Origin: a virus
Taxonomy: Duplodnaviria; Heunggongvirae; Uroviricota; Caudoviricetes
DNA: 21,524 nt
Virus record (IMG/VR): IMGVR_UViG_2663762839_000009
Span: 1-21,524 of that record
Direction: 5' to 3' (one strand)
Below the pieces are notes generated by a model, which ran no database searches, was not told where the DNA came from, and saw nothing but the letters and a program-made list of their open reading frames with translations. Shown here piece after piece: positions 2,656 through 21,417 of this stretch (position 1 is the stretch's first letter; every line of letters starts with the position of its first letter). Made by a program: the position numbers and the translations under genes.

Positions 2656-2662
2656 CGCAAGA

Positions 2663-2878: not shown

Positions 2879-2881
2879 TAA

Positions 2882-2901
2882 AGAAGGCCGGAAGGCCTTC
2901 T
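2882..2901. terminator. Hairpin between convergent tail fibre gene and Tfa fragment
   Basis: AGAAGGCC-ggaa-GGCCTTCT perfect 8-bp stem, 3 nt after the Tfa stop and 8 nt after the tail fibre stop; AT-rich flanks. Confidence 0.5.
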
Positions 2902-2909
2902 GAATATCA

Positions 2910-4276: not shown

Positions 4277-5472
4277 TTAACGGCAATCTGCACACTGCCA
4301 TCCTTATTTTCCACGATATACATCAGATTTTTGTGCCGTTTGTCCCACAGCACCGCTTTTGGCTTTGCCAGCATTGCCGGTAAGCGCCCGAAGTCCTCTG
4401 GCATCAGGGCGATGCCGTCATTCTGATGTTTCACACTGTCTGCATGGAGCACATTTTTACCGCTCATCGCCAGCAGGCGGGCCGGTGGCGTTCCCGTCCG
4501 GCTTTCCACTGCCTGCGCAATGCTTTCAGTCATAAAGCCCAGCGTGCGGATATCGTTACCACCTCGCCGGGTCTGCATGATGTTTTTTGCCCAGATGCGG
4601 AACGCCAGCTGCCGCTCCGGGCTGTTGTTCATCTCCTGAACCACCATTTCCCGTAACGCCGGGCTTTTCACCTCGATCAGTTTGCGGATCAGCGCCTGGT
4701 CTGTGCCGAACGCTGCCGAGCCGGGGTTATATGACCAGCCCACATCCGGTGTCATGGTTCTGGTGCCATCTGAATATGTGGTCACCGGCATTTCTCTGAC
4801 TTCTCCGGTCTGTTTATCCACGCCAGCCTCAACATTGCGGGTGGAGAGATGATCCTCACCGGATGAAACGGATAACCCCATTGCATCCAGACGAGCCTGA
4901 GACAATGGCCGCACACGGCAGCGGCAGTTCCAGCCATTAGGTGGGTAGTGTGTTTTCCAGAACGGATCGTCATAGCGGAATACCAGACCGTTAAGGGCGG
5001 AATGCGACGGGCGGGTACGGCTGTCCATGACCGCCACATACTGCCAGAACGGATGCGTGTCCGTGTTGTTCATCATCTGCGTGTAACGCCCGGCATTGTA
5101 AGCCACCCGGGTGTTCACGTTGTAAATCAGCGCCAGACGACGGGGACTGCCCAGTTGCACTTCTTCCGCGTTACCGTCGCTGTCCACCACAATCTGCTTT
5201 CCCCACCATCCCAGCTTTTGCAGGCGTGGCGTCAGCGTGCGGATAAATGCTTTCTGTGAAATTCCCTCATCAATGGCCCGCTGCACTTCGGCCTGTAACG
5301 TGGTCACCACATCCAGGCGTGCCGCTTTTGCTGCCGTGAATGAGCGGGCATGAACATCCGCGGCTGTTTCGAACCAGTTCCAGCTGATATGCGCCCCTTT
5401 GACACGGAAGTATGCTACCGCCTCTTTTGAGGGAAGCGTGGCGGCATAACCTAAATCAATCCCCTGTGTCAT
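4063..5472 (-). CDS. Mu F (gp30)-like head morphogenesis protein; last ~50 codons read out of frame through the baseplate-gene fragment
   Basis: 469-aa ORF. Contains the Mu F / SPP1 gp7-type motif (...VAVMDSRTRPSHSALNGLVFRYDDPFWKTHYPPNGWNCRCRVRPL...). After ...KLDVIVNAYPG the translation becomes low-complexity (RVNSCLPSVSLTRRACCWKTGSVISGFP...) while the other frame encodes the baseplate protein. Confidence 0.8.
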   Translation of the reverse strand: MTQGIDLGYAATLPSKEAVAYFRVKGAHISWNWFETAADVHARSFTAAKAARLDVVTTLQAEVQRAIDEGISQKAFIRTLTPRLQKLGWWGKQIVVDSDGNAEEVQLGSPRRLALIYNVNTRVAYNAGRYTQMMNNTDTHPFWQYVAVMDSRTRPSHSALNGLVFRYDDPFWKTHYPPNGWNCRCRVRPLSQARLDAMGLSVSSGEDHLSTRNVEAGVDKQTGEVREMPVTTYSDGTRTMTPDVGWSYNPGSAAFGTDQALIRKLIEVKSPALREMVVQEMNNSPERQLAFRIWAKNIMQTRRGGNDIRTLGFMTESIAQAVESRTGTPPARLLAMSGKNVLHADSVKHQNDGIALMPEDFGRLPAMLAKPKAVLWDKRHKNLMYIVENKDGSVQIAVNAPYSLKRQPDKLDVIVNAYPGRVNSCLPSVSLTRRACCWKTGSVISGFPSVIWPEPPSRSDSVMPEINTG

Positions 5473-7045: not shown

Positions 7046-8709
7046 TACCAGCCCCCCCGATCAAATTCATGATATGCCTCATCGTCATCACGATAACCGC
7101 CCTCCATTGCCCGCGACCGCTCCGGTAGCGCCTGACAGGCTGATTCATCCAGGATGAAGCCCTCCATGTATGACGCCCGGTTTGCCATACAGAGCGCCAC
7201 GGCAAAATCACCATGGCGGCGGGCGTTCGCAGCCGTTGCGTTCTGGTCCTTCGTGCGCCCCTTGTCGATTTGCGGGATACCATTCACTACCTTCACATGG
7301 CGCAAATCATCAAGCGTGGTCTGATGGCGGGCGACGAGGATATTCTGATCTTCAAACTCGGCTTTCAGTTTTGGCATCCACTCGCCGTACCACTTCGGCG
7401 ACAACATCACGCAGTCGATGATGTCCGGGCCAAAGGCCAGCAGTGCGGCCTCTGCCAGATAGCCGCCGTTACCGGTGGCGTCGAACGCCGCACCGACCAG
7501 CGCCGGAACGCGGGTCAGGATGTACATCATCACCTGTTCCTGCTGGGCATACGGCAGGTTGCGCAGCTCCACGCGAAACACCTCGCGCTTTGCCAGGGAT
7601 TCGGTGATTTCCAGCAGCACAAAGCAGGACAGGTCACCGGTGCGGGCAAAGTCTTCCCCGAAGCTGAAGCGGGAACGGGGATTTAATTTCTCTAAAAGCG
7701 GTTTTAAATGTTCTTCACACCAGGTTAAAACTTCCGATTCACGCAGCCATGCGGCACGGCTGATGAAGTTGTCCGGGGCTTCAAACGTCAGAATCGGGAT
7801 GTCGCGGATCATCGCCATTTCAATAAGCGCGTGGGGGATATAGGCACCGCCGGATTTTTTCGGGATACAGCCGTATTCCTCGTCGGCATCCTCACGGGTC
7901 GGGGCATTTTTGTAGAGATCATCACGCCATTTCTGCTCGCTTTCCGGTGACCATTCCTGATCGGTGACGTAACAGATACGACGGTACAGCCCGTCCGCAA
8001 TGGCATCATCCAGGGTTATGCGGTGGACGCTGTAATCCTTGCGCCCCTCGCGGGCTTCCTGAATGTACTGATTAAACAGATTATCGACGCCGTTATGCGT
8101 GGAGATAATACGCACGCGCGCGCCCCACATAGTGAGCGCCATTGCCGCCTTGAGAAGTTCATCCAGCGACTCGTGGAACGCGGCTTCATCAATCACCACA
8201 TCCCCCTGAAGGCCGCGCAGGTTTGACGGACGGGAAGACAATGCCTGAATTTTGAATCCACTGTACGGAAAGCGGATCATGTAGGTCAAAATTTCTTCTT
8301 TTTTATCCCGTTCCCAGAATGTCTGCTCATACACATCAGCATCTGCCAGCTGGTTAAAGGCACGGGAGAACAGCGCGCAGGCAGAAATATATTCCAGCGC
8401 CATCTCCTGCTTTGATCCCACATAAAACACATTGCGGCCACCACGACGCTTCGGTTTTGCAGCAGTAATGACGTTACGCCCGGCTTCCGCCCAGGTAAGA
8501 CCGGTGCGGCGGGATTTTTCCGCAATGCAGACCTGACTTTCATCCTCAAACCAGCGGGCCTGATAATCCAGAAACACCGGCATATCACCGGGCAAATCAA
8601 GTCTGTCCGGCACATCCACGCCCAGCAGGGCTTTTTCACCGGACAGATCAATTTTGCGGGGAGGCGTCATTTGTATCAGTGAAGGAGACGTTTCTTTGGC
8701 TTTGTTCAT
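7045..8709 (-). CDS. Terminase large subunit (Mu gp28-like)
   Basis: 554-aa ORF with an ATPase-like N-terminal part and nuclease-like C-terminal part; sits between the gp27-like gene and the portal gene. Confidence 0.8.
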   Translation of the reverse strand: MNKAKETSPSLIQMTPPRKIDLSGEKALLGVDVPDRLDLPGDMPVFLDYQARWFEDESQVCIAEKSRRTGLTWAEAGRNVITAAKPKRRGGRNVFYVGSKQEMALEYISACALFSRAFNQLADADVYEQTFWERDKKEEILTYMIRFPYSGFKIQALSSRPSNLRGLQGDVVIDEAAFHESLDELLKAAMALTMWGARVRIISTHNGVDNLFNQYIQEAREGRKDYSVHRITLDDAIADGLYRRICYVTDQEWSPESEQKWRDDLYKNAPTREDADEEYGCIPKKSGGAYIPHALIEMAMIRDIPILTFEAPDNFISRAAWLRESEVLTWCEEHLKPLLEKLNPRSRFSFGEDFARTGDLSCFVLLEITESLAKREVFRVELRNLPYAQQEQVMMYILTRVPALVGAAFDATGNGGYLAEAALLAFGPDIIDCVMLSPKWYGEWMPKLKAEFEDQNILVARHQTTLDDLRHVKVVNGIPQIDKGRTKDQNATAANARRHGDFAVALCMANRASYMEGFILDESACQALPERSRAMEGGYRDDDEAYHEFDRGGW

Positions 8710-8957
8710 CAGGCTTTACCTGTCAGAATGCTTTTGATTCGGAACTCAAGCTCTTCAGTCATCACGTCCACGCCACTCAACTCATCAGTGACAGCCTCTG
8801 CCAGCAGCGAATGCAGTTGTTCCAGGGATATTTCCCCGGCAATGCTGAGTTCAGTCAACTCACGACACGCTTTTATGGTTTCAGGAGGTAACTGTGTTGC
8901 AAGACTGAATGCCTTCTGATGAGCACTACTCATCAGTGAGCGGTTATCTGTTACCAC
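8709..8957 (-). CDS. Small protein (82 aa) whose C-terminus copies the C-terminal tail of the adjacent gp27-like protein
   Basis: GTG start at 8957 preceded by AGGAGGTG. C-terminus ...LLAEAVTDELSGVDVMTEELEFRIKSILTGKA parallels ...EEMANAVTDELRGVDGMSEQIEFRIRQMLLGKA of ORF 8968..9549. Stop overlaps the terminase start. Confidence 0.5.
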   Translation of the reverse strand: MVTDNRSLMSSAHQKAFSLATQLPPETIKACRELTELSIAGEISLEQLHSLLAEAVTDELSGVDVMTEELEFRIKSILTGKA

Positions 8958-8967
8958 GATTCACCTC

Positions 8968-9549
8968 CTACGCCTTACCAAGCAGCATCTGCCTGATACG
9001 GAATTCTATCTGCTCGCTCATGCCATCCACGCCGCGCAACTCGTCGGTGACGGCGTTCGCCATCTCTTCAGCAAATGCGGCCCGGATTTCTTTTTCACGC
9101 TTAATGCTGCGCTCGGCGGCACTTTCCGCACGCTGTGCCGACAGGAGGATGTCCTTAATAAGGCGCATATCCACATCGCTGTCGCTGTTCAGGGATTCGG
9201 TGGCAGCACGCAGACGGCGGTACATCAGGGCGCGGGACATTTCCAGAATCAGTGCCGTGGTTTCACCGGTCGGCTTGTCCCCCAGTTCGGCCATCATGGC
9301 TTTTGTCTGCTCGCGTAAATCACGCAGGTTACGGGCAATCAGCTCATTACGGGAGGCCTCCCGGCTGATGGCCGCCGGTGAAAGCTGCTGCTCTTCCGGC
9401 AGACCCGCCTCACGGATCAGGCGGTTGATTTCCTCGCGGATCTGGACCTGCGTCAGGCGTTTTTCACGCAGCATTTCCAGCAGCGGCTTACGGATGCTGT
9501 CGGGGAGCAAATCCACCTTGCGTACACGGCCACGCGTTGGCTTATCCAT
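8968..9549 (-). CDS. Mu gp27-like protein (putative small terminase/packaging subunit)
   Basis: 193-aa ORF, basic N-terminus (MDKPTRGRVRKVDLLPDSIRKPLLEMLREKRL...) with a helical, charged body; position immediately upstream of the large terminase. Confidence 0.7.
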   Translation of the reverse strand: MDKPTRGRVRKVDLLPDSIRKPLLEMLREKRLTQVQIREEINRLIREAGLPEEQQLSPAAISREASRNELIARNLRDLREQTKAMMAELGDKPTGETTALILEMSRALMYRRLRAATESLNSDSDVDMRLIKDILLSAQRAESAAERSIKREKEIRAAFAEEMANAVTDELRGVDGMSEQIEFRIRQMLLGKA

Positions 9550-10737: not shown

Positions 10738-11068
10738 TCGTGGCCGCCTTGCTGATTTGTGAAATGAGTTGCAGGGTGCGTTGCTGGTTTGCCAGCACCA
10801 GACGGGCTTCGTCCCGTTCACGCACAAGCACATGATTATTGTCCTCAAGGCGCTGCGTCTTCTGGTGCATTCCCCATACCACGGCAGCCAGCACGCTCAT
10901 CACCCCCAGCGCCGCCATACAGCCTCCGGCAATCAGGGCCGGTAAGGGATTGTTCACCGCAGCCACAGCACACCCCGCAGCAGCACAACGGCACACAGCA
11001 GCGCAATCATGAGCGGTCGCCAGAAGCGGTTCAGACTTTCGGCAAATCGTAACGACATAACCATTCAT
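10568..11068 (-). CDS. Inner-membrane spanin candidate (Rz-like)
   Basis: Hydrophobic segment (MAALGVMSVLAAVVWGM) followed by a charged coiled-coil-like region (HQKTQRLEDNNHVLVRERDEARLVLANQQRTLQ...); immediately downstream of the lysozyme gene. Start uncertain (ATG at 11068 or 10918). Confidence 0.55.
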   Translation of the reverse strand: MNGYVVTICRKSEPLLATAHDCAAVCRCAAAGCAVAAVNNPLPALIAGGCMAALGVMSVLAAVVWGMHQKTQRLEDNNHVLVRERDEARLVLANQQRTLQLISQISKAATNEKQQNMQHSEEQQSIVRRSLATVPAASVPVPDDVADRVRRAVCEIRAGEAGADPR

Positions 11069-11531
11069 CCGCCGAACGGCGGGCCTCAAGACCGGGGAGT
11101 TTTACCCCCTTTGAATAAATCCAGCGGATATACTGCTTACAGGACGCGGGCATCTGCCCGGCATTGATAAGGCACAGGAGCGTGGAGTTGCGAAAGTTCG
11201 TTTCACCGGCCCAGAAAATCCAGGAGGCCAGCGCCACCGTCTGACCACGGGTAAGCGGCACCTGAACATGACGATCGATAGCCGCAAAGGCCCATTTCAT
11301 GTCCTTTTCCAGCAGCTCCAGACACTCTTCATCAGTTTTTGTCATCCCCGGTTTCACATCCGGGCCGGTATGGCCGTAACAGATGGTGGGGGTGCCGGTG
11401 GGATCAATGTACGTGGTGTTTTCTTTCCCTTCCCAGTAGCCGGTGTAGTGCGTGGCAATGGTGAACGTCCCGGCTCCGGCCAGAACAAGGGCAATCAGCT
11501 TTTTACGCAGGGGTGCGGGGAGTTTTGGCAT
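11031..11531 (-). CDS. Phage lysozyme (T4-lysozyme/GH24-type) with N-terminal signal-anchor-release (SAR)-like segment
   Basis: YWEGKENTTYIDPTGTPTICYGHTG catalytic-region motif. N-terminal Gly/Ala-rich weakly hydrophobic stretch (LIALVLAGAGTFTIATHY) typical of SAR endolysins. Confidence 0.85.
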   Translation of the reverse strand: MPKLPAPLRKKLIALVLAGAGTFTIATHYTGYWEGKENTTYIDPTGTPTICYGHTGPDVKPGMTKTDEECLELLEKDMKWAFAAIDRHVQVPLTRGQTVALASWIFWAGETNFRNSTLLCLINAGQMPASCKQYIRWIYSKGVKLPGLEARRSADEWLCRYDLPKV

Positions 11532-11532
11532 T

Positions 11533-11570
11533 GTTACGCTGTCTCATGGTGTTCTCTGAGTCAGCGTAAC
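11533..11570 (-). promoter_or_regulatory. 9-bp perfect inverted repeat immediately upstream of the lysozyme start
   Basis: GTTACGCTG (11533-11541) and CAGCGTAAC (11562-11570) separated by 20 bp, in the 71-bp gap between the Mor/C-family gene and the lysozyme gene. Confidence 0.4.
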
Positions 11571-11602
11571 CGTGGGAAAAAGTGGGCAGGATTTGCGGAA
11601 TA

Positions 11603-12025
11603 TCAGAAAAGCCGTGGCTGCGTGCGTTCCTGATGCAGGCGACGCTGGTTGCGGATAACGGAGTAAATCTGCGTCTCTGACATCTGGTAGTGGCGGCGCA
11701 GGGTTTCAATTTTTTCGCCCTGGCTCCAGCGGGAAAAAATTTCATTATTGCGCAGTTCGGTGAAAAGGGATTCACCGACCGGGAGATAATAACCACGCCC
11801 GCCCATGTACCCGGCCTGTGCGGCTGCAACCTTACGGGCAAGCATTCCCGCCTGAGCAGGTTCAATCCCCTGACGGTGCAGTTCAGCACTGATCACATCA
11901 ACCAGGTCCCGCAGCGTGCCGGGCCAGTTCTTTTTCAGCTCATCATCAGGAATATCATCCAGACGGTCAATCAGCGCGTGCAGCTGTTCGCTGTCACCAA
12001 ACATGCTCATCTGTGTTTCAGCCAT
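11603..12025 (-). CDS. Mor/C-family transcriptional activator
   Basis: 140-aa ORF with a C-terminal HTH-like region (...ETLRRHYQMSETQIYSVIRNQRR...) in the Mu position between gemA and the lysis gene; preceded by a terminator-like hairpin. Confidence 0.75.
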   Translation of the reverse strand: MAETQMSMFGDSEQLHALIDRLDDIPDDELKKNWPGTLRDLVDVISAELHRQGIEPAQAGMLARKVAAAQAGYMGGRGYYLPVGESLFTELRNNEIFSRWSQGEKIETLRRHYQMSETQIYSVIRNQRRLHQERTQPRLF

Positions 12026-12065
12026 ACCCGCCTCCGGTCATCATTACACAGGGCAAGTTTAAAAT

Positions 12066-12090
12066 AAAAATCCCGCGCTGTGGCGGGGTT
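12066..12090 (-). terminator. Candidate intrinsic terminator at the end of the early operon
   Basis: On the minus strand: CCCGC-cacagc-GCGGG stem followed by ATTTTTATTTT, directly after the gemA stop. Confidence 0.45.
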
Positions 12091-12095
12091 TGGGG

Positions 12096-12608
12096 TTAAA
12101 AGGGGGAGGATTCTTCATACAGCCTGCAAACGCGCTCATAACTCATCACTGTACGCGCTGGCATCCCCAGCACATCCAGCATCTTGCGGCGGTGCCAGCG
12201 TTTGAGACGCTCCAGCACATCAGAGGCCAGCGCGGGGTGTTGTTCCAGCCACTGCCAGTTAGCCACACCTTCGCCGCCGTTCTGAGCGGCCGTCTGCGAT
12301 TTCACCCAGCGGTTAAGGGCTGTTTCCCCGCCATCAGAGATAAAGCCCTGCCGGTGCATCACCTTCCAGATGGCGCGAATTTTGGCGGTCACCGTACCCG
12401 GTTTTAAGGCCCGGTTAACCGGCTTCTGACGCACTTTAAAACCGCGTTTTTTGAAAACATCCAGCACGCGGGATAACTCATCCGGTGACATATCCCGGCA
12501 ACTGGGTTTGCCGGTGGCTGCCAGTAGTACGGATGTGTAGGTCTCATGGTCAAGCTGTAGATCGCGTTTTGCGACATGTATTAAGGTAATCAGGGAAGCG
12601 CGATTCAT
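12096..12608 (-). CDS. gemA: GemA-like protein (Mu gp16 family)
   Basis: 170-aa ORF (MNRASLITLIHVAKRDLQLDHETYTSVLLAATGKPSCRDMSPDELSRVLDVFKKRGF...) at the end of the early operon, immediately before the Mor/C-family activator. Confidence 0.75.
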   Translation of the reverse strand: MNRASLITLIHVAKRDLQLDHETYTSVLLAATGKPSCRDMSPDELSRVLDVFKKRGFKVRQKPVNRALKPGTVTAKIRAIWKVMHRQGFISDGGETALNRWVKSQTAAQNGGEGVANWQWLEQHPALASDVLERLKRWHRRKMLDVLGMPARTVMSYERVCRLYEESSPF

Positions 12609-12672
12609 TATCGTGTCTCCGTAACAACAGGCGGCATGGCAACGCCGCCCGGATAAAACTAAAGGTATCGAT

Positions 12673-13083
12673 ATGAAAATAGATTACGATGAAGTATTAA
12701 GTATTCTCACAACTTTTCAGGATGCTGAAACACCTTTCCTTACACTACAGGATCTGGGCATGGCTGAGGCAGAAGGAGAGGAAAAGGATAAAAAAGTTTT
12801 TCATCTTATGCTTCTCGCTGATAATGGCTCAATTGTTAATGGTGATATGCAGTCAGAAACACCCAAATATATTGGTTTCTTTTTCCATTCTCTGGGCGTT
12901 GGTTTCAGAAACACGCCCATTATGCTTACCCAGCAGGGGCATGATTTAGCTAACGCCCTGAGAAAAAAACCAATCCTTGAAAGAATCAAAAAGGAGTTTA
13001 CAGACGCACCATTTGATCTAATTAAAGAAGTTACCAAATCAATGTTAACCAGGTTCGTCAAAGAACGTATTGGGATTGACTGA
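12673..13083 (+). CDS. Hypothetical protein, opposite-strand AT-rich accessory gene
   Basis: 136-aa ORF on the plus strand inside an otherwise minus-strand operon; AAAGG Shine-Dalgarno 7 nt upstream; visibly AT-rich codon usage; own hairpin plus T-run downstream; 3' end overlaps the convergent gene 13045..13353 by about 39 nt. Confidence 0.6.
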   Translation: MKIDYDEVLSILTTFQDAETPFLTLQDLGMAEAEGEEKDKKVFHLMLLADNGSIVNGDMQSETPKYIGFFFHSLGVGFRNTPIMLTQQGHDLANALRKKPILERIKKEFTDAPFDLIKEVTKSMLTRFVKERIGID

Positions 13084-13353
13084 ACAACTTAATTCAGCCA
13101 GTAATCGCAGGGCGGCGACAGCCGCCTGCTTGTCACTTCTTTTAGCTATTTCCGCAAGAGTATGCACAATCCATAACGGACTTAACGCCACGGCTGAATC
13201 CAGAATCATGTCATCCATAATAATTTCTGGCATATCCCGCTTGTCACATTCTTTATCCATAAAAGAAACGAATTTCTCTGCATCTTCCGGTTTCATGCCT
13301 CCGGCGATAAGGATTTTGCGATATTCATAAGACGATCTTAATTCAATACTCAT
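13045..13353 (-). CDS. Hypothetical protein (102 aa)
   Basis: ATG at 13353 preceded by AGGTGA; AT-rich; acidic protein. Confidence 0.5.
   Translation of the reverse strand: MSIELRSSYEYRKILIAGGMKPEDAEKFVSFMDKECDKRDMPEIIMDDMILDSAVALSPLWIVHTLAEIAKRSDKQAAVAALRLLAELSCSVNPNTFFDEPG
13107..13145 (+). terminator. Candidate intrinsic terminator for the plus-strand accessory gene
   Basis: GCAGGGCGGCG-aca-GCCGCCTGC stem followed by TTGTCACTTCTTTT, about 25 nt after the stop at 13083; lies inside the coding sequence of the convergent minus-strand gene. Confidence 0.45.
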
Positions 13354-13368
13354 TATTCACCTGCCTGC

Positions 13369-13761
13369 TTAATCTGTTTCCAGTGCTTTGCTACGGGCTA
13401 TAGCCTCACATTCAAAAAACACCGACTCCGGCACGCGCTCTTTTAATTCACGAACAAGGAAATCATTAACGCGTTCATGACGTCTTATATTTCTTTCCTT
13501 TTCCTCCTGGCGCAATACAGCAAGGCGGTATTCAACAGCCCGGCGTTGTTTCTGAAAGACAGCCAGTGCTTTTCTGGCAGCATTACGCCATGCATCATCG
13601 CCACATGGTGCGTATTCAAGCTGAAATTTAATCTCTTCAATAGTTTCTTTGATTTTTGCCAGCAAGCTAAGACAGTCGCTTATTGTCTCCAGCTTTTCAT
13701 TATCAATATAACTTCTCACGCATTCACCTCCCGTAATTCCGGTAAAGCCGAAATATGACAC
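13369..13761 (-). CDS. Hypothetical coiled-coil protein
   Basis: ORF 13369..13761; the true start may be the GTG at 13719, which overlaps the upstream stop as GTGA. Charged helical sequence (...RKALAVFQKQRRAVEYRLAVLRQEEKERNIRRHERV...). Confidence 0.5.
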   Translation of the reverse strand: MSYFGFTGITGGECVRSYIDNEKLETISDCLSLLAKIKETIEEIKFQLEYAPCGDDAWRNAARKALAVFQKQRRAVEYRLAVLRQEEKERNIRRHERVNDFLVRELKERVPESVFFECEAIARSKALETD

Positions 13762-14045
13762 CAGTGCGTCACCTGTCCGTCTTCATCTTCAAGGCAGGCT
13801 CCGGTTTCTTCATCAACAAAAAAGCCTTCATACCCCATATGGCCGATGCGCAGCTCCTGACGGTGACCATACTGAACAATCAGCACGGCAGCCTCCATAT
13901 CAGGTGGGAAAGCATCATTCAGTGAATGCCAGGGATAACCGCGTAAATCCCCGAAATAAACACCGGTCAGCGTTCCGCCACAGAGCGGCATTCCGGCGGC
14001 ACACACAAGAGGTTCATCTGATTCAACAAATAAGGTCGTTATCAT
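13716..14045 (-). CDS. Hypothetical protein (109 aa)
   Basis: ORF translationally coupled to its neighbours (overlaps 14042..14593 by 4 nt). Confidence 0.5.
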   Translation of the reverse strand: MITTLFVESDEPLVCAAGMPLCGGTLTGVYFGDLRGYPWHSLNDAFPPDMEAAVLIVQYGHRQELRIGHMGYEGFFVDEETGACLEDEDGQVTHWCHISALPELREVNA

Positions 14046-14593
14046 GGCGTTAACTCCCGTAATACAGCGTCCTCGGCAGTCCGGCGACGGTAATAAACTG
14101 CGTGAGCAGAATGTTCAGATATTCCAAACTTTTCGCCAATTTCCCGGAATGACAGACGGCGTGGGTAATCGGAATCACGCAGCGCACGTATAAGACGTAC
14201 ATCATCATCAGATATGTGCGTGCCGGGGCGTAACTCTCCGCACTTTGTTAATCCAGCACCAATCATTCCTGCCCGACATCTGACAGAATCTTTATTACGT
14301 CCGAGATATTCTCCCATTTGCTGGCAGGTCATTGTTCTGGCATTTTTTCGAATAAACTTATCTTCATCAGGTGTAAATCTTGGGTGTTTATATTTCAGTA
14401 ACTCCGGGTATGAACTGCGCAATACACCAGTCCGGTTATATACAGCCCAGACAGTTCTTTTTATTCTGGCAGCAATATCCTTAACCGGGGTGGATGAATA
14501 AAGCGCAATCAGCAGCGCATCTTCTTCAGGTGTCCACGGACGGACATGAGCGGGGGCGCGACCTTTTAGTCCCATGGGTTGTAATTTCATCAT
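14042..14593 (-). CDS. Putative DNA-binding protein with three internal Myb/SANT-like helix-turn-helix repeats
   Basis: Three repeats of the pattern hydrophobic-T/S-acidic-acidic-helix: WTPEEDALLIALYSSTPVKDIAARIKRTVWAVYNR / FTPDEDKFIRKNARTMTCQQMGEYLGRNKDSVRCR / ISDDDVRLIRALRDSDYPRRLSFREIGEKFGISEHSAHAVYYRR. Confidence 0.55.
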   Translation of the reverse strand: MMKLQPMGLKGRAPAHVRPWTPEEDALLIALYSSTPVKDIAARIKRTVWAVYNRTGVLRSSYPELLKYKHPRFTPDEDKFIRKNARTMTCQQMGEYLGRNKDSVRCRAGMIGAGLTKCGELRPGTHISDDDVRLIRALRDSDYPRRLSFREIGEKFGISEHSAHAVYYRRRTAEDAVLRELTP

Positions 14594-14596: not shown

Positions 14597-15112
14597 TCAC
14601 CCCCTGACTCGCTTTTCAGCAGCATAAAACTCATCAGACAGTATTTCGGTCATTTTCTGTTTTGCGGGTTTTACGCCGCACTGAAGGTAAATCACATCGT
14701 CAACGCAGAACCACTTCACAGGGCCAAACAGGATTGCCGAGAAATCAATACCCAACCAGAACAACAGCGCATCGGTTCTGGCATACGTGACGGGCGAATA
14801 TTCACGCCACAGACTGTTCAGTTCATCAGAGGCAACACGCAGGGTTTTAGGGATACGTGATGTGCGCGGTGTGCAGCTCCAGCCATTCGACGCAGTCGGT
14901 TTTCGCCATAAGTCGCGATGAAAAGGATATTTGTCCTCCGTAAAACGCAGTCCCTTAAAGTAAAATCCACTGATACCGGATACAAATACCGACCGGCACG
15001 CAACATTCAGCACGGCCTCAAGGCGTTTTGCCTCATCCTTAACTTTCTGGCAGTCCTGCTGGTATTTTTGCCACGCAGCCAGCGCGGAAGGGTTTGATGT
15101 TTTAAAGAACAT
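14597..15112 (-). CDS. Hypothetical protein (171 aa)
   Basis: ORF whose ATG overlaps the stop of the upstream gene (TAATG at 15112); no recognisable motif. Confidence 0.5.
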   Translation of the reverse strand: MFFKTSNPSALAAWQKYQQDCQKVKDEAKRLEAVLNVACRSVFVSGISGFYFKGLRFTEDKYPFHRDLWRKPTASNGWSCTPRTSRIPKTLRVASDELNSLWREYSPVTYARTDALLFWLGIDFSAILFGPVKWFCVDDVIYLQCGVKPAKQKMTEILSDEFYAAEKRVRG

Positions 15113-15645
15113 TACGCCACCTCCGCAGATATCCCGGCAGGCGCTGCTGTCCGGTCAACAATCAGGTAGCGCAGAACATGTTCAGTGATATTCCAGCCGC
15201 TTAAACCGCAGATAATGACGCCCAGGCGTATGTCGATATACGCCATCACAAACTGGGGCACGCCTTCTTTCATGGCCTGCTCATCAACTTCTGCCACCAC
15301 ATAAACGGTTTCACAGGTCAGAACGCCCTGAGCAAATTCCCACGCCATCGACGGAATATCATGCCCCTCAATCCATGGCAGGGATTTTCTGAAGCCGCAC
15401 CACTGAACATCATCAGCCGCAGATTCCTGGCTGCATTTGCGACGAACCGGCTGCACCGGGCGGGGGCGCGGAATATCATAAAAACCGTTACATTCCGTCA
15501 GCACGCCTGCATCAACCGCATCACGCAGAAAATAAACCATGGAGGATGGCGGCATATTCATTTTTTCAGCCAGTACACCGCAGGTCAGGCGGCCATAAAT
15601 ACACAGCCAGTTTTTAACCCCTTCAAGCACTTTTGCATCAATCAT
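15112..15645 (-). CDS. Hypothetical protein with N-terminal winged-helix-like region
   Basis: 177-aa ORF, first gene after the AT-rich spacer downstream of gam; N-terminus GRLTCGVLAEKMNMPPSSMVYFLRDAVDAGVL resembles a wHTH. Confidence 0.5.
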   Translation of the reverse strand: MIDAKVLEGVKNWLCIYGRLTCGVLAEKMNMPPSSMVYFLRDAVDAGVLTECNGFYDIPRPRPVQPVRRKCSQESAADDVQWCGFRKSLPWIEGHDIPSMAWEFAQGVLTCETVYVVAEVDEQAMKEGVPQFVMAYIDIRLGVIICGLSGWNITEHVLRYLIVDRTAAPAGISAEVA

Positions 15646-15790: not shown

Positions 15791-16321
15791 TTATTTATTC
15801 AGTCCGGCGTCCTGTTCAAAAGGCTCGACATAAAAACTTTCAGCGCCTTTATTCACCTTGATACCGGCAATGCCTTTCACAGCATCCGGCTCCGCCAGGA
15901 CGGCTTCCTTGTTCACTTCCTCTTTCGTGCGGATGAAACGCTCAAGCCCCATACGGCGCAGCATTTCAATCACACCTTCCACATCACGGCTGACGCTGCA
16001 TGATGGCGTTCCCAGCCGCCATGACACCGTTCCGGTGGTCAGATTGGCTGTTTTGGTTTTGCCGCCGTTCGTCAGCTCATCACGGTTGGTTTTGCACCAG
16101 TCCTGAATCCCTTTAAAAAGCACTTTGATTTGCTTTTTAAGATTTTCAATCTGCGGCGTATAACGGGCGGTGATTTCTGCCACTTCGTCATTCATCGCCG
16201 TTTCCAGGCGCAGCGCCTCTCGCTGAATATCTCCCAGGGTGCGGATATCACGGCTGACTTCTTCCCGGGTCTGCGGTGCCGCCTCGGCTGCGGCCTTTAA
16301 TTTTGTAACGCGTTTAGCCAT
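15791..16321 (-). CDS. gam: Gam-like host-nuclease inhibitor (Mu Gam/Ku-like DNA end-binding protein)
   Basis: 176-aa ORF; ...EVSRDIRTLGDIQREALRLETAMNDEVAEITARY...WCKTNRDELTNGGKTKTANLTTGTVSWR...FIRTKEEVNKEAVLAEP... is recognised as Mu Gam. Confidence 0.8.
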   Translation of the reverse strand: MAKRVTKLKAAAEAAPQTREEVSRDIRTLGDIQREALRLETAMNDEVAEITARYTPQIENLKKQIKVLFKGIQDWCKTNRDELTNGGKTKTANLTTGTVSWRLGTPSCSVSRDVEGVIEMLRRMGLERFIRTKEEVNKEAVLAEPDAVKGIAGIKVNKGAESFYVEPFEQDAGLNK

Positions 16322-17449: not shown

Positions 17450-17677
17450 TTAGCTGACTTGTTTCGCACCAACAGAACGGCATATTCCGCTGTAAACTTC
17501 TGTCGCACCTTCGCGATCAAGTCCGGCAGATATCACCATTCGTGTGCGGTCATTAAATTCAAAAAGTAAATCGCCACATTCTTTATTTTCGGCCAGTGAA
17601 ATCACCTTCACGTTATCGAAATTAACCAGGTAAAAGCGTCCGTAAATATCAGGAATATTAAATACCGCCATAATCAC
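17450..17677 (-). CDS. Hypothetical small early protein (75 aa)
   Basis: ORF starting 4 nt inside the end of the B gene (translational coupling). Confidence 0.45.
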   Translation of the reverse strand: MIMAVFNIPDIYGRFYLVNFDNVKVISLAENKECGDLLFEFNDRTRMVISAGLDREGATEVYSGICRSVGAKQVS

Positions 17678-18615
17678 ACCTGTGAGAGTAATTCAGGGTT
17701 GGTATAAACCTCTTTAAAGGCCGCATTAATATGTTTTTCTGTCAGCGCCGCGCCTTCACCGCTGGCGGTGAGCCACGCCTGGTTAAGCGTATGTGTCAGA
17801 ACGCGTAACGCTCCCGGCTTTTCAGCGATAGCCTGCATGACGGCCAGCTCGGCCTCACCACTGATCCCCCACGCCATGGCAATGGCCAGCACATCCGCCT
17901 TTTTGGCCTTGCGAAGTTGTTTTGTACGGGCAAGACGGCTGAACAGGCGCGATAAATCATCAAAGGCGCGGCGTCCACCTTTAAACAATCCGCGCGGGTT
18001 ACCAATAAGCACCATCCCGATCCCCGTGGCGTCCTGAATTGCCCGGAGTTGCTCCAGACCGTCAATACCAAGATGATCCGCCTCATCCACAATCACCAGT
18101 CCACGCGTTCCCATCAGGCGACGGCGGATGGCGCGGGATAATGCCCCTTTGTTCGCGCGGGTGTAATCAATCCCCAGCGCATCGGCCAGCTCCAGCAGAC
18201 ACTCCGTGACGCTGGAGTGCGCGGGTGACAGGGTGATCATCCAGGTGTTTGGTTGCTCCTGGCAGTAATTACGGGCAGTGGCCGTTTTACCCACACCCGG
18301 TACGCCCACAATAACGTTAATACAGCCCATCAGGCGAACCGCCTGAAACAGTGCGCGCAGCTCCTGGACTGTCTGAGTTTCCACAAACTGCGGCGGTTCC
18401 GGCAGTGCGCTTTGTTTATTCCAGTTCTCATACCAGGAGCGCAGGGAAGCAGCCACAGCAGCGTTATCGCCTTTATATTTTCCCTTACGGAAAGCCGATA
18501 ATGTGCCGTCGGAAATTCCCGCCTCTCTGGCGATGGCATACTGCGTCAGTACGCCGCCATCAATAAGTTCATCAATGGTCTTGATTACATCGTTAATATC
18601 GGTCATATTATTCAC
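17674..18615 (-). CDS. MuB-like transposition target-capture ATPase
   Basis: 313-aa ORF with N-terminal HTH-like region and Walker A motif GVPGVGKT; located directly downstream of the transposase gene as in Mu. Confidence 0.85.
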   Translation of the reverse strand: MNNMTDINDVIKTIDELIDGGVLTQYAIAREAGISDGTLSAFRKGKYKGDNAAVAASLRSWYENWNKQSALPEPPQFVETQTVQELRALFQAVRLMGCINVIVGVPGVGKTATARNYCQEQPNTWMITLSPAHSSVTECLLELADALGIDYTRANKGALSRAIRRRLMGTRGLVIVDEADHLGIDGLEQLRAIQDATGIGMVLIGNPRGLFKGGRRAFDDLSRLFSRLARTKQLRKAKKADVLAIAMAWGISGEAELAVMQAIAEKPGALRVLTHTLNQAWLTASGEGAALTEKHINAAFKEVYTNPELLSQV

Positions 18616-18688: not shown

Positions 18689-20446
18689 TCAGGCCAGCGG
18701 ATCACTTTCTTTTAATTTCGCTTCGAGCAGTTGCAATCCCCGCTGGAAATTACGCTCGTATTCTTCATCAGGTTCATCGTCAGCGACCGGTTGCTGAACG
18801 GTCACCGTATTACCCACAGGGCGGTATATGTTTTCCAGCCAGGGCTCCTGCGGCTTGTGCTCCAGCACGTTGACAACCTCATCCTCGACATCACGGATTT
18901 TTTCCTCTGCGCGTTTACGCATGCCTTTAAGGCGCTGCTGCTGTTTGTAGTATTCCGCGCTGACAGGGAAGGCTTCGCGTTTATTGCCGTCCCATACCGC
19001 CTCGCAAATCACGCTGCCATCCGGGCGGCGCACGGTAATTCGTTCGGCATCATGAATGTCATAGCTGATAAGTACCTTACGGCCATGCTCGTCACGCAGC
19101 TCGGGCGCGTAGTAAATATTATTCAGCCAGCGTATTTCACAGCGTCTTACAGGGCGCTCCACCATCGGCCGGAACATATCCCGCAGTTCAACATCGGACA
19201 GCCATTCAATTTCCGTGTCCTCTTCCGCCAGGCGTTTTTTTCTGAACTCCGCCGGGCTGTAATGTTTACCGTTCGGCTTCATGGGTAATTCATCGTGCGG
19301 CCGGTTGTTGTACCACTCAACACCGTCACGAATGGCATCAATCAGTTCAGACCAGGACGGTAAATCACGCATCGCTGACTGCTGCCGGGCGTTCAGCCGT
19401 TTGCCCTGTTGCAGGGCACTGAATGCCGAGCGTAAATCGCGGTTGGTTTTACGTAACGTCTCGCGATCTGCTCCTTTCCCGAAATAGGTGCGGTATTTAC
19501 GGGCTATGCGCATCGGTAATGTGCGGTTAAGCCGTTCGATAATGCCCCGTCCCTGCGGATTACCGGCAATCCCTGTCGGGTGATTAATCCCCAGTCGTGG
19601 CAGTACCCGGCCTTTTTGTTTCACCACTTCCGGCAGTTTCTTCATTGCGCGGCGAATGGTGTCATAAGAGGGCATGATATCGAGCATATAAGGCTCATCA
19701 GCGTGCCGGTGCTGCCATTCAGCAACAAAATCCTCGTAAGCCTCGGTCATTGGTCGGCCGTTTGACTGGCGATACTGCGCCAGAAATTCGGGCAGCCAGT
19801 TAATATCTTCGGCTTTTATTTCCTGGCGTTTACCCGGTGCCAGTAAAAGCAGGCGTTCAGCGGCGTTCTGTGCCTTGTTAAAGGCCGCAATCCAGCGTTT
19901 CAGCGTGATTTCACTCAACGCGCGGCTGTTTCCCTTTTTGGCGTTCGCCGTCTCAACCATTGCCACAATGCGCTCGTCCAGTTGTGATCGTGCCAGGCTG
20001 TTAACGAGGAACCGGATAGCCTTAGCGCAACTAAAGCCGGGTTGTTGCGCGATTTTCAGCACCTCGCTGACGATCGCTATTCGTGCCTCTGCCACTTTAC
20101 GTTGGTTTTCAGTCAGGGCATTGAGGCGTTCGACCATCAGTTGGGGTGATCCGCGATATGCCTCCACCGCATCAACCACGGCAGGTGAGCGTCTGGCCTT
20201 TGTCACCACCGGAGCCGGTGATTCATCGGCTTTTTGCGTCATCAGTTGCAGGGCGTAGCGTTCACGTAATGCCTGCTGCGTCACTTCAGGTAAACAGTCG
20301 ATGCTGTATTCAGTTGCTTTAGAGCCTGAGCGACGACGGGAACAACAGCTTTTCCCTTGTACGTAACGTTGTAATGCCTGGCGAATACCTTTTGTTGTAG
20401 CAGGCATTCCGGGCGCGCCAATCAGTTCTTTTGCAATGACATACAT
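18689..20446 (-). CDS. MuA-like transposase
   Basis: 585-aa ORF following ner. Contains integrase-core-like motifs (...GNPQGRGIIERLNRTL... and ...WYNNRPHDELPMKP...) and a C-terminal region resembling the MuA C-terminal domain (...RPDGSVICEAVWDG...IYRPVGNTV...DDEPDEEYERN...). Confidence 0.8.
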   Translation of the reverse strand: MYVIAKELIGAPGMPATTKGIRQALQRYVQGKSCCSRRRSGSKATEYSIDCLPEVTQQALRERYALQLMTQKADESPAPVVTKARRSPAVVDAVEAYRGSPQLMVERLNALTENQRKVAEARIAIVSEVLKIAQQPGFSCAKAIRFLVNSLARSQLDERIVAMVETANAKKGNSRALSEITLKRWIAAFNKAQNAAERLLLLAPGKRQEIKAEDINWLPEFLAQYRQSNGRPMTEAYEDFVAEWQHRHADEPYMLDIMPSYDTIRRAMKKLPEVVKQKGRVLPRLGINHPTGIAGNPQGRGIIERLNRTLPMRIARKYRTYFGKGADRETLRKTNRDLRSAFSALQQGKRLNARQQSAMRDLPSWSELIDAIRDGVEWYNNRPHDELPMKPNGKHYSPAEFRKKRLAEEDTEIEWLSDVELRDMFRPMVERPVRRCEIRWLNNIYYAPELRDEHGRKVLISYDIHDAERITVRRPDGSVICEAVWDGNKREAFPVSAEYYKQQQRLKGMRKRAEEKIRDVEDEVVNVLEHKPQEPWLENIYRPVGNTVTVQQPVADDEPDEEYERNFQRGLQLLEAKLKESDPLA

Positions 20447-20447: not shown

Positions 20448-20696
20448 TCATGACGCCTTTCTCATATAGCTCTTAACCTGGTATCGACTGGGCCAGATTT
20501 CTTCAGGTGATACCCCAAGAGCATCAGCAATTATTTGCTGATACGGTCGGCAAGGAGTACGTAATACGCTTTTCAGCGAATCCCTGCTGTAACCAGCCTT
20601 TAAAGATAAAGAGCGCAGTGATAAGCCAGCCATGTGTAAGCGCGCCTTGATGATTTCAGGCGGCCAATCGTGATCTGAAACTTCTCTTCTACTCAT
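20448..20696 (-). CDS. ner: Ner-like DNA-binding regulator
   Basis: 82-aa ORF (...DWPPEIIKARLHMAGLSLRSLSLKAGYSRDSLKSVLRTPCRPYQQIIADALGVSPEEIWPSRYQ...) recognised as Mu Ner / E. coli Nlp family; AGGAAG Shine-Dalgarno; first gene of the early operon. Confidence 0.85.
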   Translation of the reverse strand: MSRREVSDHDWPPEIIKARLHMAGLSLRSLSLKAGYSRDSLKSVLRTPCRPYQQIIADALGVSPEEIWPSRYQVKSYMRKAS

Positions 20697-20886
20697 ACTT
20701 CCTCTATTCTAAAAAGTTACCCGCGCGGATATTCGTGCGGATATCTGTACGGGTAAATAATGCATCACCAAAAATACCAAACCAAGGTATTTTTGGTATT
20801 TTGGCTAATTTTTGCTTTTATCCTTATTTTTCAATTGGATAAATAGAAAGAAACCTTTCCTTAGAAAAGCACCAAGAGGTATCTTT
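20697..20886. promoter_or_regulatory. Divergent early/repressor promoter-operator region
   Basis: 190-bp AT-rich intergenic region between divergent ner and repressor genes. Contains a perfect 12-bp inverted repeat ACCAAAAATACC-n7-GGTATTTTTGGT (20767-20797), direct repeats GCGGATAT at 20725-20732 and 20737-20744, and an enclosing TTACCCG/CGGGTAA inverted repeat (20717-20723 and 20750-20756). Confidence 0.6.
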
Positions 20887-21417
20887 ATGTCGCAGGGAAA
20901 AGAACCTGTTATTGAACGTATTGGAATGCTTACAAAGCGCTACCCTTCAAGAAGTGCAGCTGCCAGAGCGTGGGGAATCAATATCAACACATTAAACAGC
21001 TATTTCAAGGGAGGACAAACACAACCAGCCCCCAGAGAAAGTATCCTTATACGAATTTCTGAAAGTGAAGGCGTTAGTCTTGAGTGGCTTAAAGAGGGCA
21101 AGGGTGAATTACCAAACGATATTGGTATTTATGGTAATTTTGGTTGTTCTGGTGATAAGGGAGATCAGCTTACACAGATGCTTTCATTCCTTACGAAAGA
21201 CGAACGAGAACAGTTAACCAATCTCCTTGCTCGCAAAGGTGTAGAGACGGTTCTGACACTGCTGAATAAAGAAAACCAAGATTTATTACAACTAGAAGGC
21301 AGGAAGCGCCTGGCTGCGTTGATGATTGTAGATATGCCAGACGATTGCGTCAGAGAGATTTTGGAAAAAACCGAGACAAGTAGGCAATCAAATCCGGTAG
21401 AATCTAAAGCGGGTTAG
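20887..21417 (+). CDS. Putative prophage repressor with CI-type (phage 186 CI-like) HTH
   Basis: Start ATG at 20887 with AAGAGG Shine-Dalgarno (the ORF track starts at 20812). N-terminus ...SRSAAARAWGININTLNSYFKGGQTQPAPRESILIRISESEGVSLEWLKEGKG resembles the CI-repressor HTH domain; divergent from ner as the Mu c repressor is. Confidence 0.6.
   Translation: MSQGKEPVIERIGMLTKRYPSRSAAARAWGININTLNSYFKGGQTQPAPRESILIRISESEGVSLEWLKEGKGELPNDIGIYGNFGCSGDKGDQLTQMLSFLTKDEREQLTNLLARKGVETVLTLLNKENQDLLQLEGRKRLAALMIVDMPDDCVREILEKTETSRQSNPVESKAG

What the first reader, a model, noticed from the sequence alone, without database searches (positions are those of the whole stretch)
12610..13761. AT-rich convergent gene island in the early region just upstream of gemA: candidate accessory (defence or anti-defence) module
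Three ORFs (minus 13369..13761, minus 13045..13353, plus 12673..13083) are visibly more AT-rich than the surrounding prophage genes. The 136-aa plus-strand gene is the only opposite-strand gene in the early-to-late operon block. It has its own ribosome-binding site and a hairpin/T-run terminator at 13107-13145, its 3' end overlaps the convergent 102-aa gene by about 39 nt, and its terminator lies inside that gene's coding sequence. This is the arrangement expected for a horizontally acquired cargo cassette, with possible antisense coupling between the convergent partners. None of the three proteins has a motif I can assign, so the function is open.
Basis: partly seen in the sequence, partly recalled or inferred. 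Interest (0 to 1): 0.7.

Follow-up and report, generated by a model that had tools for sequence, protein, structure and literature searches.

The report
Optional backwards gene in Mu-like prophage
One small gene of unknown function, encoding a winged-helix (DNA-binding-type) protein, sits backwards in a swap-prone slot next to the gemA gene of a Mu-like E. coli prophage; its two AT-rich neighbours are ordinary backbone phage genes, and nothing links any of them to phage defence.

Summary
The sequence features are mostly real. The plus-strand ORF 12673-13083 is a genuine gene. It is the most AT-rich gene in the window (GC 0.39) and overlaps the convergent 102-aa gene by 39 nt. A GC hairpin lies 24 nt past its stop.

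The "three-gene island" is not one unit. Only 12582-13108 is swapped in related E. coli Mu-like prophages. The two minus-strand genes are conserved backbone early genes.

The plus-strand protein belongs to the DUF2513 family. With a 124-sequence alignment AlphaFold gives pLDDT 97, and the fold is a winged helix of the MarR/PadR/TubR type.

The gene is facultative:
- It is in 6 of about 232 E. coli genomes that carry this prophage family.
- It is patchy among Mu-like viral contigs.
- One contig has lost it through a clean 358-bp deletion.

It is also old. At 31-54% identity it keeps the same place, strand and short convergent overlap in six other sequence lineages of Mu-like phages, among them a Klebsiella phage; a Shewanella prophage keeps the place and strand. 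The low GC recurs in all six other lineages measured, so it does not indicate recent import.

I found no sigma-70 promoter, no canonical terminator, no defence-model hit and no literature. Best reading: a moron-like accessory gene for a small winged-helix regulator, probably expressed in the lysogen. Its target is unknown.

The parts
12096..12608 (-). gemA (Mu gp16 family). It marks the fixed left boundary of the variable slot and is divergent from the DUF2513 gene.
   Evidence: Pfam GemA E 2.8e-28. RefSeq names it 'gp16 family protein'.
12630..12649 (.). Palindrome/hairpin GGCGGC-N8-GCCGCC in the 64-nt gemA/DUF2513 intergenic region. On the early (minus) strand it is followed by TGTTGTTAC and the gemA ribosome-binding site (GGAGA, 12616-12620). 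It resembles a terminator or an operator, and it belongs to the gemA boundary rather than to DUF2513.
   Evidence: Sequence; fold -24.5 kcal/mol. The same element, GGCGGTG-N6-CACCGCC plus a T-run, lies upstream of gemA in loci with DUF2513, in loci with the unrelated 79-aa gene, and in a few loci with neither. The terminator scan does not call it in this window.
12673..13083 (+). DUF2513-family gene (136 aa): winged-helix domain (about residues 1-97) plus C-terminal helices. This is the only truly facultative gene of the finding.
12582..13108 (.). The segment actually swapped relative to the common E. coli O157-type Mu-like prophage. There it is replaced by 584 bp that carry two same-strand genes of 98 and 65 aa. 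It includes the first 9 codons of gemA and the last 21 codons of the 102-aa gene.
   Evidence: blastn break points, annotation of L002/L003 and alignment.
12667..13024 (.). 358 bp missing in a natural deletion variant (viral contig L027/L072). The deletion removes the DUF2513 start and 117 codons and leaves the gene's 3' 59 nt.
   Evidence: blastn of L027 against the window: 13025 is joined to 12666 through a 7-nt overlap.
13045..13083 (.). 39-nt convergent, in-register overlap between the 3' ends of the DUF2513 gene and the 102-aa gene.
   Evidence: Overlap is 39 nt in five further groups of loci (L005/L006, L007/L020, L021/L022, L023, L048-L051), 30 nt in L017-L019, 29 nt in Klebsiella phage Kp4866-3 and 18 nt in L140.
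13107..13129 (.). GC hairpin (GCAGGGCGGC-GACA-GCCGCCTGC) 24 nt after the DUF2513 stop. It lies on the invariant Q-A-A-V-A-A-L codons of the 102-aa gene. It is at best a weak terminator here, because the T-run at 13137-13143 is not adjacent.
   Evidence: Folds. The hairpin is kept in 9 loci with a GCG/GCC to GCA/GCT compensatory change, and two loci have G.U only on the plus strand. It is also present in loci without DUF2513. The terminator scan does not call it.
13045..13353 (-). 102-aa early gene of unknown function, with the invariant motif DKxAAVAAL. It is a backbone gene whose C-terminal tail co-varies with the slot occupant.
   Evidence: phrog_1988 E 1.3e-38. It is 81% identical over its whole length (A4; 93% over residues 1-76 in the Stx2c-phage copy) in prophages lacking DUF2513, and only the last roughly 20 aa differ. 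No Pfam or PDB match.
13369..13719 (-). 116-aa early gene of unknown function. It is a backbone gene. The 130-aa reading from GTG at 13761 is probably too long.
   Evidence: phrog_6158 E 1e-54, aligned from residue 15 of the long ORF. RefSeq uses the 351-nt call. It is conserved in L002/L003.

Best explanation
SHOWN
- The window is a defective Mu-like prophage of E. coli, with its genes on the minus strand.
- Between the semi-essential early genes and gemA-mor lies a polymorphic slot.
- In this prophage the slot holds one opposite-strand gene, 12673-13083. It encodes a 136-aa acidic protein of the DUF2513 family with a winged-helix fold of the MarR/PadR/TubR type and C-terminal helices.
- The gene is facultative: it is present, absent, replaced or deleted among close relatives.
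- It is also an old resident of Mu-like phages. It is always antisense to the early operon. In all but one of the loci that carry it (L140) it is divergent from gemA. It usually overlaps the 3' end of the neighbouring roughly 100-aa early gene by 18-39 nt.
- The two minus-strand ORFs named in the finding are ordinary conserved early genes of unknown function.

INFERRED
- Strong early transcription from Pe runs antisense through the gene. It is therefore most likely expressed when the early operon is silent, that is from the repressed prophage, like a moron.
- Its product most likely acts as a small, probably dimeric, nucleic-acid-binding regulator.
- The target could be the phage's own gemA-mor boundary, incoming related phages, or host genes. 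Which one is unknown.
- The convergent overlap and the two flanking GC hairpins may couple its expression to that of the early operon. This has not been shown.
For: - Real gene under selection. Full-length homologues exist at 31-54% identity with no disruption. A profile search finds 256 clusters at 50% identity.
- Facultative. 6 of 232 E. coli genomes. 14 of about 80 gemA-bearing viral contigs, with presence and absence within one gemA lineage (L105/107/109/110 versus L104/106/108/111). Alternative occupants of the slot. A deletion remnant in L027. A frameshifted copy in L014 and an IS1 insertion next to the gene in L013.
- Ancient, fixed position. Escherichia, Klebsiella phage Kp4866-3 and a Shewanella algae prophage all have gemA divergent from DUF2513.
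- Persistent low GC in all seven lineages measured.
- Distant family members lie in other accessory settings: between lysis genes and terS in a Klebsiella phage, in a Vibrio prophage accessory block, and in an integron-like cassette array.
- Precedent. Forward-strand genes expressed in the lysogen, overlapping early genes and giving exclusion, occur in Pseudomonas Mu-like phage Fc02 (PMC9936078).
Against: - No sigma-70-like promoter was found upstream of 12673, either in the window or conserved across lineages. Expression in the lysogen is therefore pure inference.
- There is no canonical terminator in this window.
- The protein and its family are acidic. The window protein has pI 5.2 and the family median is 5.3. 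The winged-helix part carries a net charge of -8.
- The putative recognition helix has no conserved basic residues. The family's best-conserved basic residue (R84, 95%) is Met in this protein. DNA binding is therefore not assured, and a protein-binding winged-helix module is possible.
- The Pfam score of this protein (23.6 bits) is below the gathering cut-off of 29.6.
- The prophage in the window is defective, so the gene may no longer serve the phage.
Confidence: 0.6

Rival explanations
1. Phage-internal switch. The DUF2513 protein, or simply convergent transcription of its gene, gates expression of gemA-mor and so the early-to-middle transition. It would act at the intergenic palindrome or terminator-like hairpin just upstream of gemA, for example by keeping mor silent in the lysogen.
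For: - The divergent adjacency to gemA is strictly conserved in Escherichia, Klebsiella and Shewanella Mu-like phages.
- This is the classic layout of a regulator and its divergent target, with a palindrome between the two start codons.
- The hairpin with a T-run lies directly before the gemA ribosome-binding site.
- In the window, GGCGG-N5-12-CCGCC occurs only twice, once on each side of the gene.
Against: - The gene is dispensable in many close relatives.
- The gemA-proximal hairpin also occurs with an unrelated 79-aa gene and with no opposite-strand gene. It is missing in DUF2513 lineages whose intergenic region is only 30 nt.
- In L140 the gene sits downstream of gemA.
- The arm sequences of the two hairpins do not match in other lineages.
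- 6 of 100 shuffles also give two matches.
Confidence: 0.2
2. Lysogenic-conversion defence gene. The DUF2513 protein excludes or restricts superinfecting phages, or alternatively it counters a host defence.
For: - The slot is polymorphic and holds alternative small cargo genes, like known prophage defence hotspots.
- The gene lies opposite to the lytic operon.
- Relatives sit in integron-like cassette arrays and prophage accessory blocks.
- Pseudomonas Mu-like phage Fc02 has overlapping genes with exclusion activity (PMC9936078).
Against: - No PADLOC model matches any of the seven proteins tested.
- There is no effector domain (nuclease, membrane, NTPase) in a 136-aa winged-helix protein.
- The library holds no paper on DUF2513 or PF10711.
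- The position and partner are conserved down to 31% identity. That fits a resident phage gene better than rapidly turning-over defence cargo.
Confidence: 0.15
3. A three-gene, recently acquired AT-rich island (12610-13761) that works as one module, as proposed by the first reader.
For: The AT-rich stretch is contiguous, and two of the genes overlap convergently.
Against: - Homology to prophages that lack the plus-strand gene resumes at 13109 and runs at 89-97% through both minus-strand genes.
- The 116-aa gene has no special link to DUF2513. Other DUF2513 lineages have different genes at that position.
- Low GC is shared by several other early genes and is ancient.
Confidence: 0.03

Closest known systems
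Pfam PF10711 (DUF2513) / PHROG 585, and the related YjcQ family (PF09639)
   Same: - The window protein aligns over the whole model (residues 2-111 to positions 1-96 of 100).
- 95 of 124 homologues match PF10711, and one matches YjcQ.
- phrog_585 E 7e-18.
- RefSeq already names it a DUF2513 domain-containing protein.
   Different: - Its own Pfam score (23.6 bits) is below the gathering cut-off.
- It lacks the family's conserved Arg84.
- The family has no known function, and the searched library holds no paper on it.
MarR / PadR / HxlR / TubR-type winged-helix DNA-binding proteins
   Same: - The length is similar, and helices flank the winged helix as in MarR dimers.
- It has an LTxxG-type motif after the wing.
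   Different: - There is no sequence-level membership, with no Pfam hit to MarR or PadR.
- The protein is acidic, and the recognition helix is poor in basic residues.
- The dimer, the operator and any ligand are all untested.
Morons (accessory single-gene cassettes of temperate phages; Juhala/Hendrix concept as summarised in PMC4378225)
   Same: - A single small gene is present or absent between the same two backbone genes in related phages.
- Its base composition deviates from its neighbours.
- It is oriented independently of the surrounding operon.
   Different: - Its own promoter and terminator could not be demonstrated.
- The gene is not a recent arrival. Position, strand and overlap are conserved to 31% identity.
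Overlapping genes expressed in the lysogen with exclusion activity in Pseudomonas Mu-like phage Fc02 (olg1 / gene 10; PMC9936078)
   Same: It is a transposable Mu-like phage in which a gene on the repressor strand overlaps an early-operon gene on the other strand.
   Different: - The location differs: Fc02's genes lie beside the repressor and ner, not beside gemA.
- The proteins are unrelated.
- The overlap there is extensive, not a 3'-end overlap.
- No exclusion has been shown for DUF2513.

Membership tests
DUF2513 (PF10711) | Match to the Pfam model at or above the gathering score (29.6 bits) | tested here: not met
   The score is 23.6 bits, E 6.6e-5, with full-length alignment.
DUF2513 (PF10711) | Homology to family members shown by profile or transitive searches | tested here: met
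   A profile built from the window protein and two homologues recovers 256 clusters. 95 of 124 of these match PF10711, best E 9e-15. phrog_585 E 7e-18. RefSeq uses the DUF2513 name.
MarR/PadR-type winged-helix transcription regulators | Winged helix-turn-helix fold with flanking helices | tested here: met
   [not shown]
MarR/PadR-type winged-helix transcription regulators | Sequence membership (Pfam MarR, MarR_2, PadR) | tested here: not met
   No such hit for the window protein or for any of the 124 homologues. The PDB sequence/profile search gives nothing significant.
MarR/PadR-type winged-helix transcription regulators | Basic DNA-contact surface and conserved wing arginine | tested here: inconclusive
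   pI is 5.2 and the winged-helix part has net charge -8. The conserved R84 (95% of the family) is Met here.
MarR/PadR-type winged-helix transcription regulators | Dimer binding a palindromic operator near its own gene | not testable with these tools
   A palindrome exists at 12630-12649, but it is shared with loci that lack the gene. Binding needs EMSA or ChIP.
Moron / accessory prophage cassette | Present or absent between the same flanking genes in related phages | tested here: met
Moron / accessory prophage cassette | Own promoter and own terminator | tested here: inconclusive
   No sigma-70 consensus lies upstream. The hairpin at 13107-13129 has no adjacent T-run in the window, but it is followed directly by U5 in L005 and L023.
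Moron / accessory prophage cassette | Base composition different from neighbouring genes | tested here: met
   GC is 0.387 against 0.556 for gemA. The trait is ancient and shared by other early genes, so it does not date an acquisition.
Moron / accessory prophage cassette | Expressed from the repressed prophage | not testable with these tools
   This needs strand-specific RNA-seq or a reporter fusion in a lysogen.
Known anti-phage defence systems (PADLOC-DB v2) | Match of any component to a defence-system model | tested here: not met
   No hit for the DUF2513 protein. The only hit among the seven proteins is PDC-S72 at E 0.068 for the 102-aa protein, which I treat as chance.

The most novel reading that the evidence does not exclude
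The slot immediately upstream of gemA is a previously undescribed hotspot for opposite-strand cargo in enterobacterial Mu-like phages. DUF2513 would then be the founding member of a new functional class. It could be a winged-helix superinfection-exclusion or defence factor expressed in the lysogen. Or, together with its overlapping roughly 100-aa partner and the gemA-proximal hairpin, it could form a convergent-transcription switch that gates mor and so the early-to-middle transition.
Probability: 0.15. Interest if true: 0.65.

Novelty: new member of a known kind. Interest (0 to 1): 0.33.

Why it matters
- Small prophage accessory genes in variable slots have repeatedly turned out to be defence, anti-defence or lysogeny-control factors.
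- For E. coli Mu-like prophages I found no description of such a slot in the searched literature.
- This work narrows the candidate from a three-gene, 1.15-kb 'island' to one 411-bp gene with a confident fold.
- It identifies a natural deletion allele (12667-13024) and two alternative occupants of the same slot. These give ready-made controls for experiments.
- If the gene only encodes one more uncharacterised winged-helix protein with no phenotype, the finding is ordinary.

Tried and rejected
- PADLOC defence models on seven proteins of the region gave nothing.
- NCBIfam gave nothing useful.
- Rfam, with permissive E-values over 11500-14500, gave only a chance snoRNA hit inside mor.
- The PDB sequence/profile search for the DUF2513 family gave nothing significant, and the same was true for the 102-aa family. 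Pfam on the 102-aa family gave nothing.
- Foldseek against BFVD returned only weak, mostly unnamed winged-helix proteins. The AFDB50 library was unavailable.
- Literature searches for DUF2513, 'DUF 2513', PF10711 and WP_000687317 returned zero papers. Searches on gemA and Mu-like accessory genes gave only general precedents.
- Promoter search. The tool scan and my own weighted -35/-10 scan of seven lineages found no conserved sigma-70 promoter. The best recurring candidate (TAGATC-18-TAAnnT) is weak and lies in conserved gemA codons.
- I rejected the idea that the two GGCGGC hairpins flanking the gene are paired operator sites. The arm sequences differ between the 5' and 3' hairpins in other lineages, and the 5' one is not specific to DUF2513.
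- I could not establish that the roughly 100-aa partner always travels with DUF2513. It also occurs without it. DUF2513 occurs without it in Shewanella. The partners in L064 and L140 are only weakly similar (hhalign probability about 19%).
- The search for related loci with the 124-sequence alignment failed for lack of a conserved stretch, so I used smaller alignments instead.
Full report
**Context**

The window is a Mu-like prophage of E. coli with its genes on the minus strand.
- Repressor: 20812-21417 (+).
- ner: 20448-20696.
- Transposase A: 18689-20446.
- B: 17674-18615.
- gam: 15791-16321.
- A gp11-like gene: 15112-15645.
- gemA/gp16: 12096-12608.
- mor: 11603-12025.
- Lysozyme: 11031-11531.
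- Terminase, portal and MuF lie further left.

These assignments rest. The segment 12400-14100 is 99.7-99.9% identical to five complete E. coli genomes (97.7% to a sixth). RefSeq annotates it there as gp16 family protein, DUF2513 domain-containing protein (opposite strand), three hypothetical proteins and a SANT/Myb-like protein.

**Check of the observation**

The AT-rich stretch is real. GC is 0.41-0.45 over 12600-13800 against 0.55-0.60 to the left. Per gene:
- plus-strand ORF: GC 0.387, GC3 0.34, the lowest in the window;
- 102-aa gene: 0.424;
- next gene: 0.430;
- gemA: 0.556.

Four other early-region genes, including the repressor, are equally AT-rich at 0.41-0.43.

The plus-strand ORF 12673-13083 has an AAAGG Shine-Dalgarno sequence. 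It overlaps the convergent 102-aa gene (13045-13353) by 39 nt, with the codons in register.

The hairpin at 13107-13129 is real. Its T-run begins 8 nt after the stem, and the terminator scan does not call it.

The third ORF is better read as 13369-13719 (116 aa) than as 130 aa.

**The 'island' is not one unit**

I compared the window with the common E. coli O157-type Mu-like prophage (L002, L003). Homology runs up to 12581 and resumes at 13109, at 89-97% identity through both minus-strand ORFs.

Only 12582-13108 is replaced. In those prophages the segment is 584 bp and carries two same-strand genes of 98 and 65 aa.

The swapped piece contains:
- the first 9 codons of gemA;
- the intergenic region;
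- the plus-strand gene;
- the last roughly 21 codons of the 102-aa gene, whose C-terminal tail therefore differs between the two types.

The 102-aa and 116-aa proteins match PHROG families 1988 and 6158 strongly. They have no Pfam, NCBIfam, PADLOC or PDB match. They are backbone early genes of unknown function.

**What the plus-strand gene encodes**

The protein matches Pfam DUF2513 over its full length, but below the gathering score (23.6 against 29.6 bits). It matches phrog_585 at E 7e-18.

Close homologues are few. An exhaustive profile search finds 256 clusters, nearly all stand-alone proteins of 125-150 aa. 95 of 124 of them match PF10711.

With that alignment AlphaFold gives pLDDT 97.1 and pTM 0.89.
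- Foldseek gives weak MarR-family matches over the full length.
- BFVD adds nothing.

The family is acidic: median pI 5.3, and 5.2 for this protein. The winged-helix part has net charge -8. The best-conserved basic residue, R84, is Met here. The fold is therefore shown, but DNA binding is only inferred. The held library contains no paper that mentions DUF2513 or PF10711.

**Facultative but ancient**

Evidence that the gene is facultative:
- The DUF2513 cassette is in 6 of 5,426 complete E. coli genomes, against about 232 genomes that carry the flanks.
- A different, unrelated opposite-strand 79-aa gene (phrog_32893) occupies the same slot in 14 genomes.
- Other viral contigs have nothing there (L056-L061).
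- Among about 80 gemA-bearing Mu-like viral contigs, 14 carry DUF2513. Presence and absence both occur within a single gemA lineage.
- Contig L027/L072 is the window type with a clean 358-bp deletion (window 12667-13024). It leaves the last 59 nt of the gene, so this is a loss rather than a gain.
- L014 has a frameshifted copy, and L013 has IS1 inserted just after the gene.

Evidence that it is ancient:
- Homologues of 31-54% identity lie in the same place, divergent from gemA and antisense to the early operon. These are metagenomic contigs L005-L007, viral contigs L017-L023 and L048-L051, Klebsiella phage Kp4866-3 and a Shewanella algae prophage.
- In all of these except the Shewanella prophage the gene overlaps the 3' end of a roughly 100-aa early gene by 29-39 nt; in L140 the overlap is 18 nt.
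- In L140 the convergent pair sits downstream of gemA instead. Its partner there is only weakly similar to the 102-aa family.
- The low GC of DUF2513 and its partner relative to gemA recurs in all seven lineages measured. It is a standing property, not a sign of recent import.

More distant family members lie in other accessory settings:
- between the lysis genes and terS of a Klebsiella lambdoid phage;
- in a Vibrio prophage accessory block;
- in an integron-like cassette array.

**Regulatory signals**

No sigma-70-type promoter is found upstream of 12673 by the tool scan or by my scan of seven lineages.

The 64-nt intergenic region holds a palindrome, GGCGGC-N8-GCCGCC (12630-12649).
- On the early strand it is followed by a T-rich tail and the gemA ribosome-binding site.
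- In relatives it is GGCGGTG-N6-CACCGCC followed by T5-6, which looks like an intrinsic terminator.
- It also occurs with the 79-aa gene and in a few loci with neither gene. It is absent from DUF2513 lineages that have a 30-nt intergenic region.
- It therefore belongs to the gemA boundary, not to DUF2513.

The 3' hairpin (13107-13129) lies on the invariant DKxAAVAAL codons of the 102-aa protein.
- It is kept in nine loci with one compensatory change, and in two loci it pairs only on the plus strand (G.U).
- It is also present where DUF2513 is absent.
- In L005 and L023 it is followed directly by U5 and would make a reasonable terminator for the plus-strand gene. In this window it would not.

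The motif GGCGG-N5-12-CCGCC occurs exactly twice in the window, once on each side of the gene. 6 of 100 shuffles do as well, and the arm identity is not conserved in other lineages. Rfam finds nothing.

**Interpretation**

The best-supported reading is a moron-like accessory gene for a small winged-helix protein in a polymorphic slot upstream of gemA.
- Early transcription runs antisense through the gene, so it is most plausibly expressed when Pe is repressed, that is in the lysogen. This step is inferred.
- Its target is unknown.

Rivals:
- A phage-internal regulator of gemA-mor. The conserved divergent adjacency to gemA favours this. The gene's dispensability and the non-specific hairpin count against it.
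- A lysogenic-conversion exclusion or defence factor. The hotspot behaviour and the Fc02 precedent (PMC9936078) favour this. Against it are the absence of any defence-model hit, the lack of an effector domain and the deep conservation of position.
- The three-gene acquired island. contradict it.

**Verdict**

The gene is already annotated in RefSeq as a DUF2513 protein. What this work adds:
- the confident fold;
- the exact extent of the variable segment;
- the alternative occupants of the slot;
- the natural deletion allele;
- the conserved convergent overlap.

This is a new member of a known kind (a prophage accessory gene of an uncharacterised DUF family) and is of modest interest unless a phenotype is found.

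Noticed in passing
window 2187-5472: The prophage looks defective. The MuF-like gene (4063-5472) abuts a C-terminal fragment of a Mu Gp48-like baseplate gene (3791-4120), so most head and tail genes appear to be deleted. A 166-aa YncE-like beta-propeller fragment (2187-2687) and an amino-acid permease (478-2064, +) look like the host flank, which suggests insertion in or next to yncE.
   Followed up: partly
window 12619-12649; also L076, L105, L107-L109, L112, L113, L115, L139, L149, L150 (about 40 nt upstream of gemA): A nearly sequence-identical GC hairpin (GGCGGTG-N6-CACCGCC) with a T-rich tail sits directly before the gemA ribosome-binding site on the early strand. It occurs in Mu-like phages whose GemA proteins are only 41-67% identical. 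The stem sequence itself is conserved, rather than only the pairing, which suggests a specific function such as an internal early-operon terminator or attenuator, or a protein-binding site.
   Followed up: partly
L077 2191-2430 (-), also L079, L108, L139, L150; 14 E. coli genomes: A second, unrelated opposite-strand gene (79 aa, phrog_32893, unknown function) occupies the same slot upstream of gemA. It overlaps the 3' end of a same-strand 100-aa early gene (phrog_6075) by 20 nt. This mirrors the DUF2513 arrangement.
   Followed up: partly
window 13105-13131 and homologous codons in L002, L003, L005, L007, L017, L018, L021, L023: The only invariant block of the roughly 100-aa early protein family (DKxAAVAAL) coincides with a conserved GC hairpin. 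Its one free third-codon-position pair co-varies (GCG/GCC to GCA/GCT). This may be dual coding of a protein motif and an RNA or DNA structure.
   Followed up: partly
L013 about 8500-9200; L042-type hit H42 (NZ_CP027586.1): IS1 copies are inserted in or right next to this slot in at least two independent prophages. In L013 IS1 lies immediately downstream of the DUF2513 gene, and in H42 it lies inside the 79-aa cassette.
   Followed up: no
L068 2592-12405: A distant DUF2513 homologue (P0126) lies in what looks like a chromosomal integron cassette array. A divergent tyrosine-recombinase gene is followed by many small same-strand ORFs, including an SMI1/KNR4 (SUKH) immunity-type protein.
   Followed up: no
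E. coli JE86-ST02 / JE86-ST05 (NZ_AP022811.1, NZ_AP022815.1): These genomes carry two copies of the DUF2513 cassette at different chromosomal sites. JE86-ST05 also carries the 79-aa cassette, so several Mu-like prophages with different slot occupants coexist in one cell.
   Followed up: no
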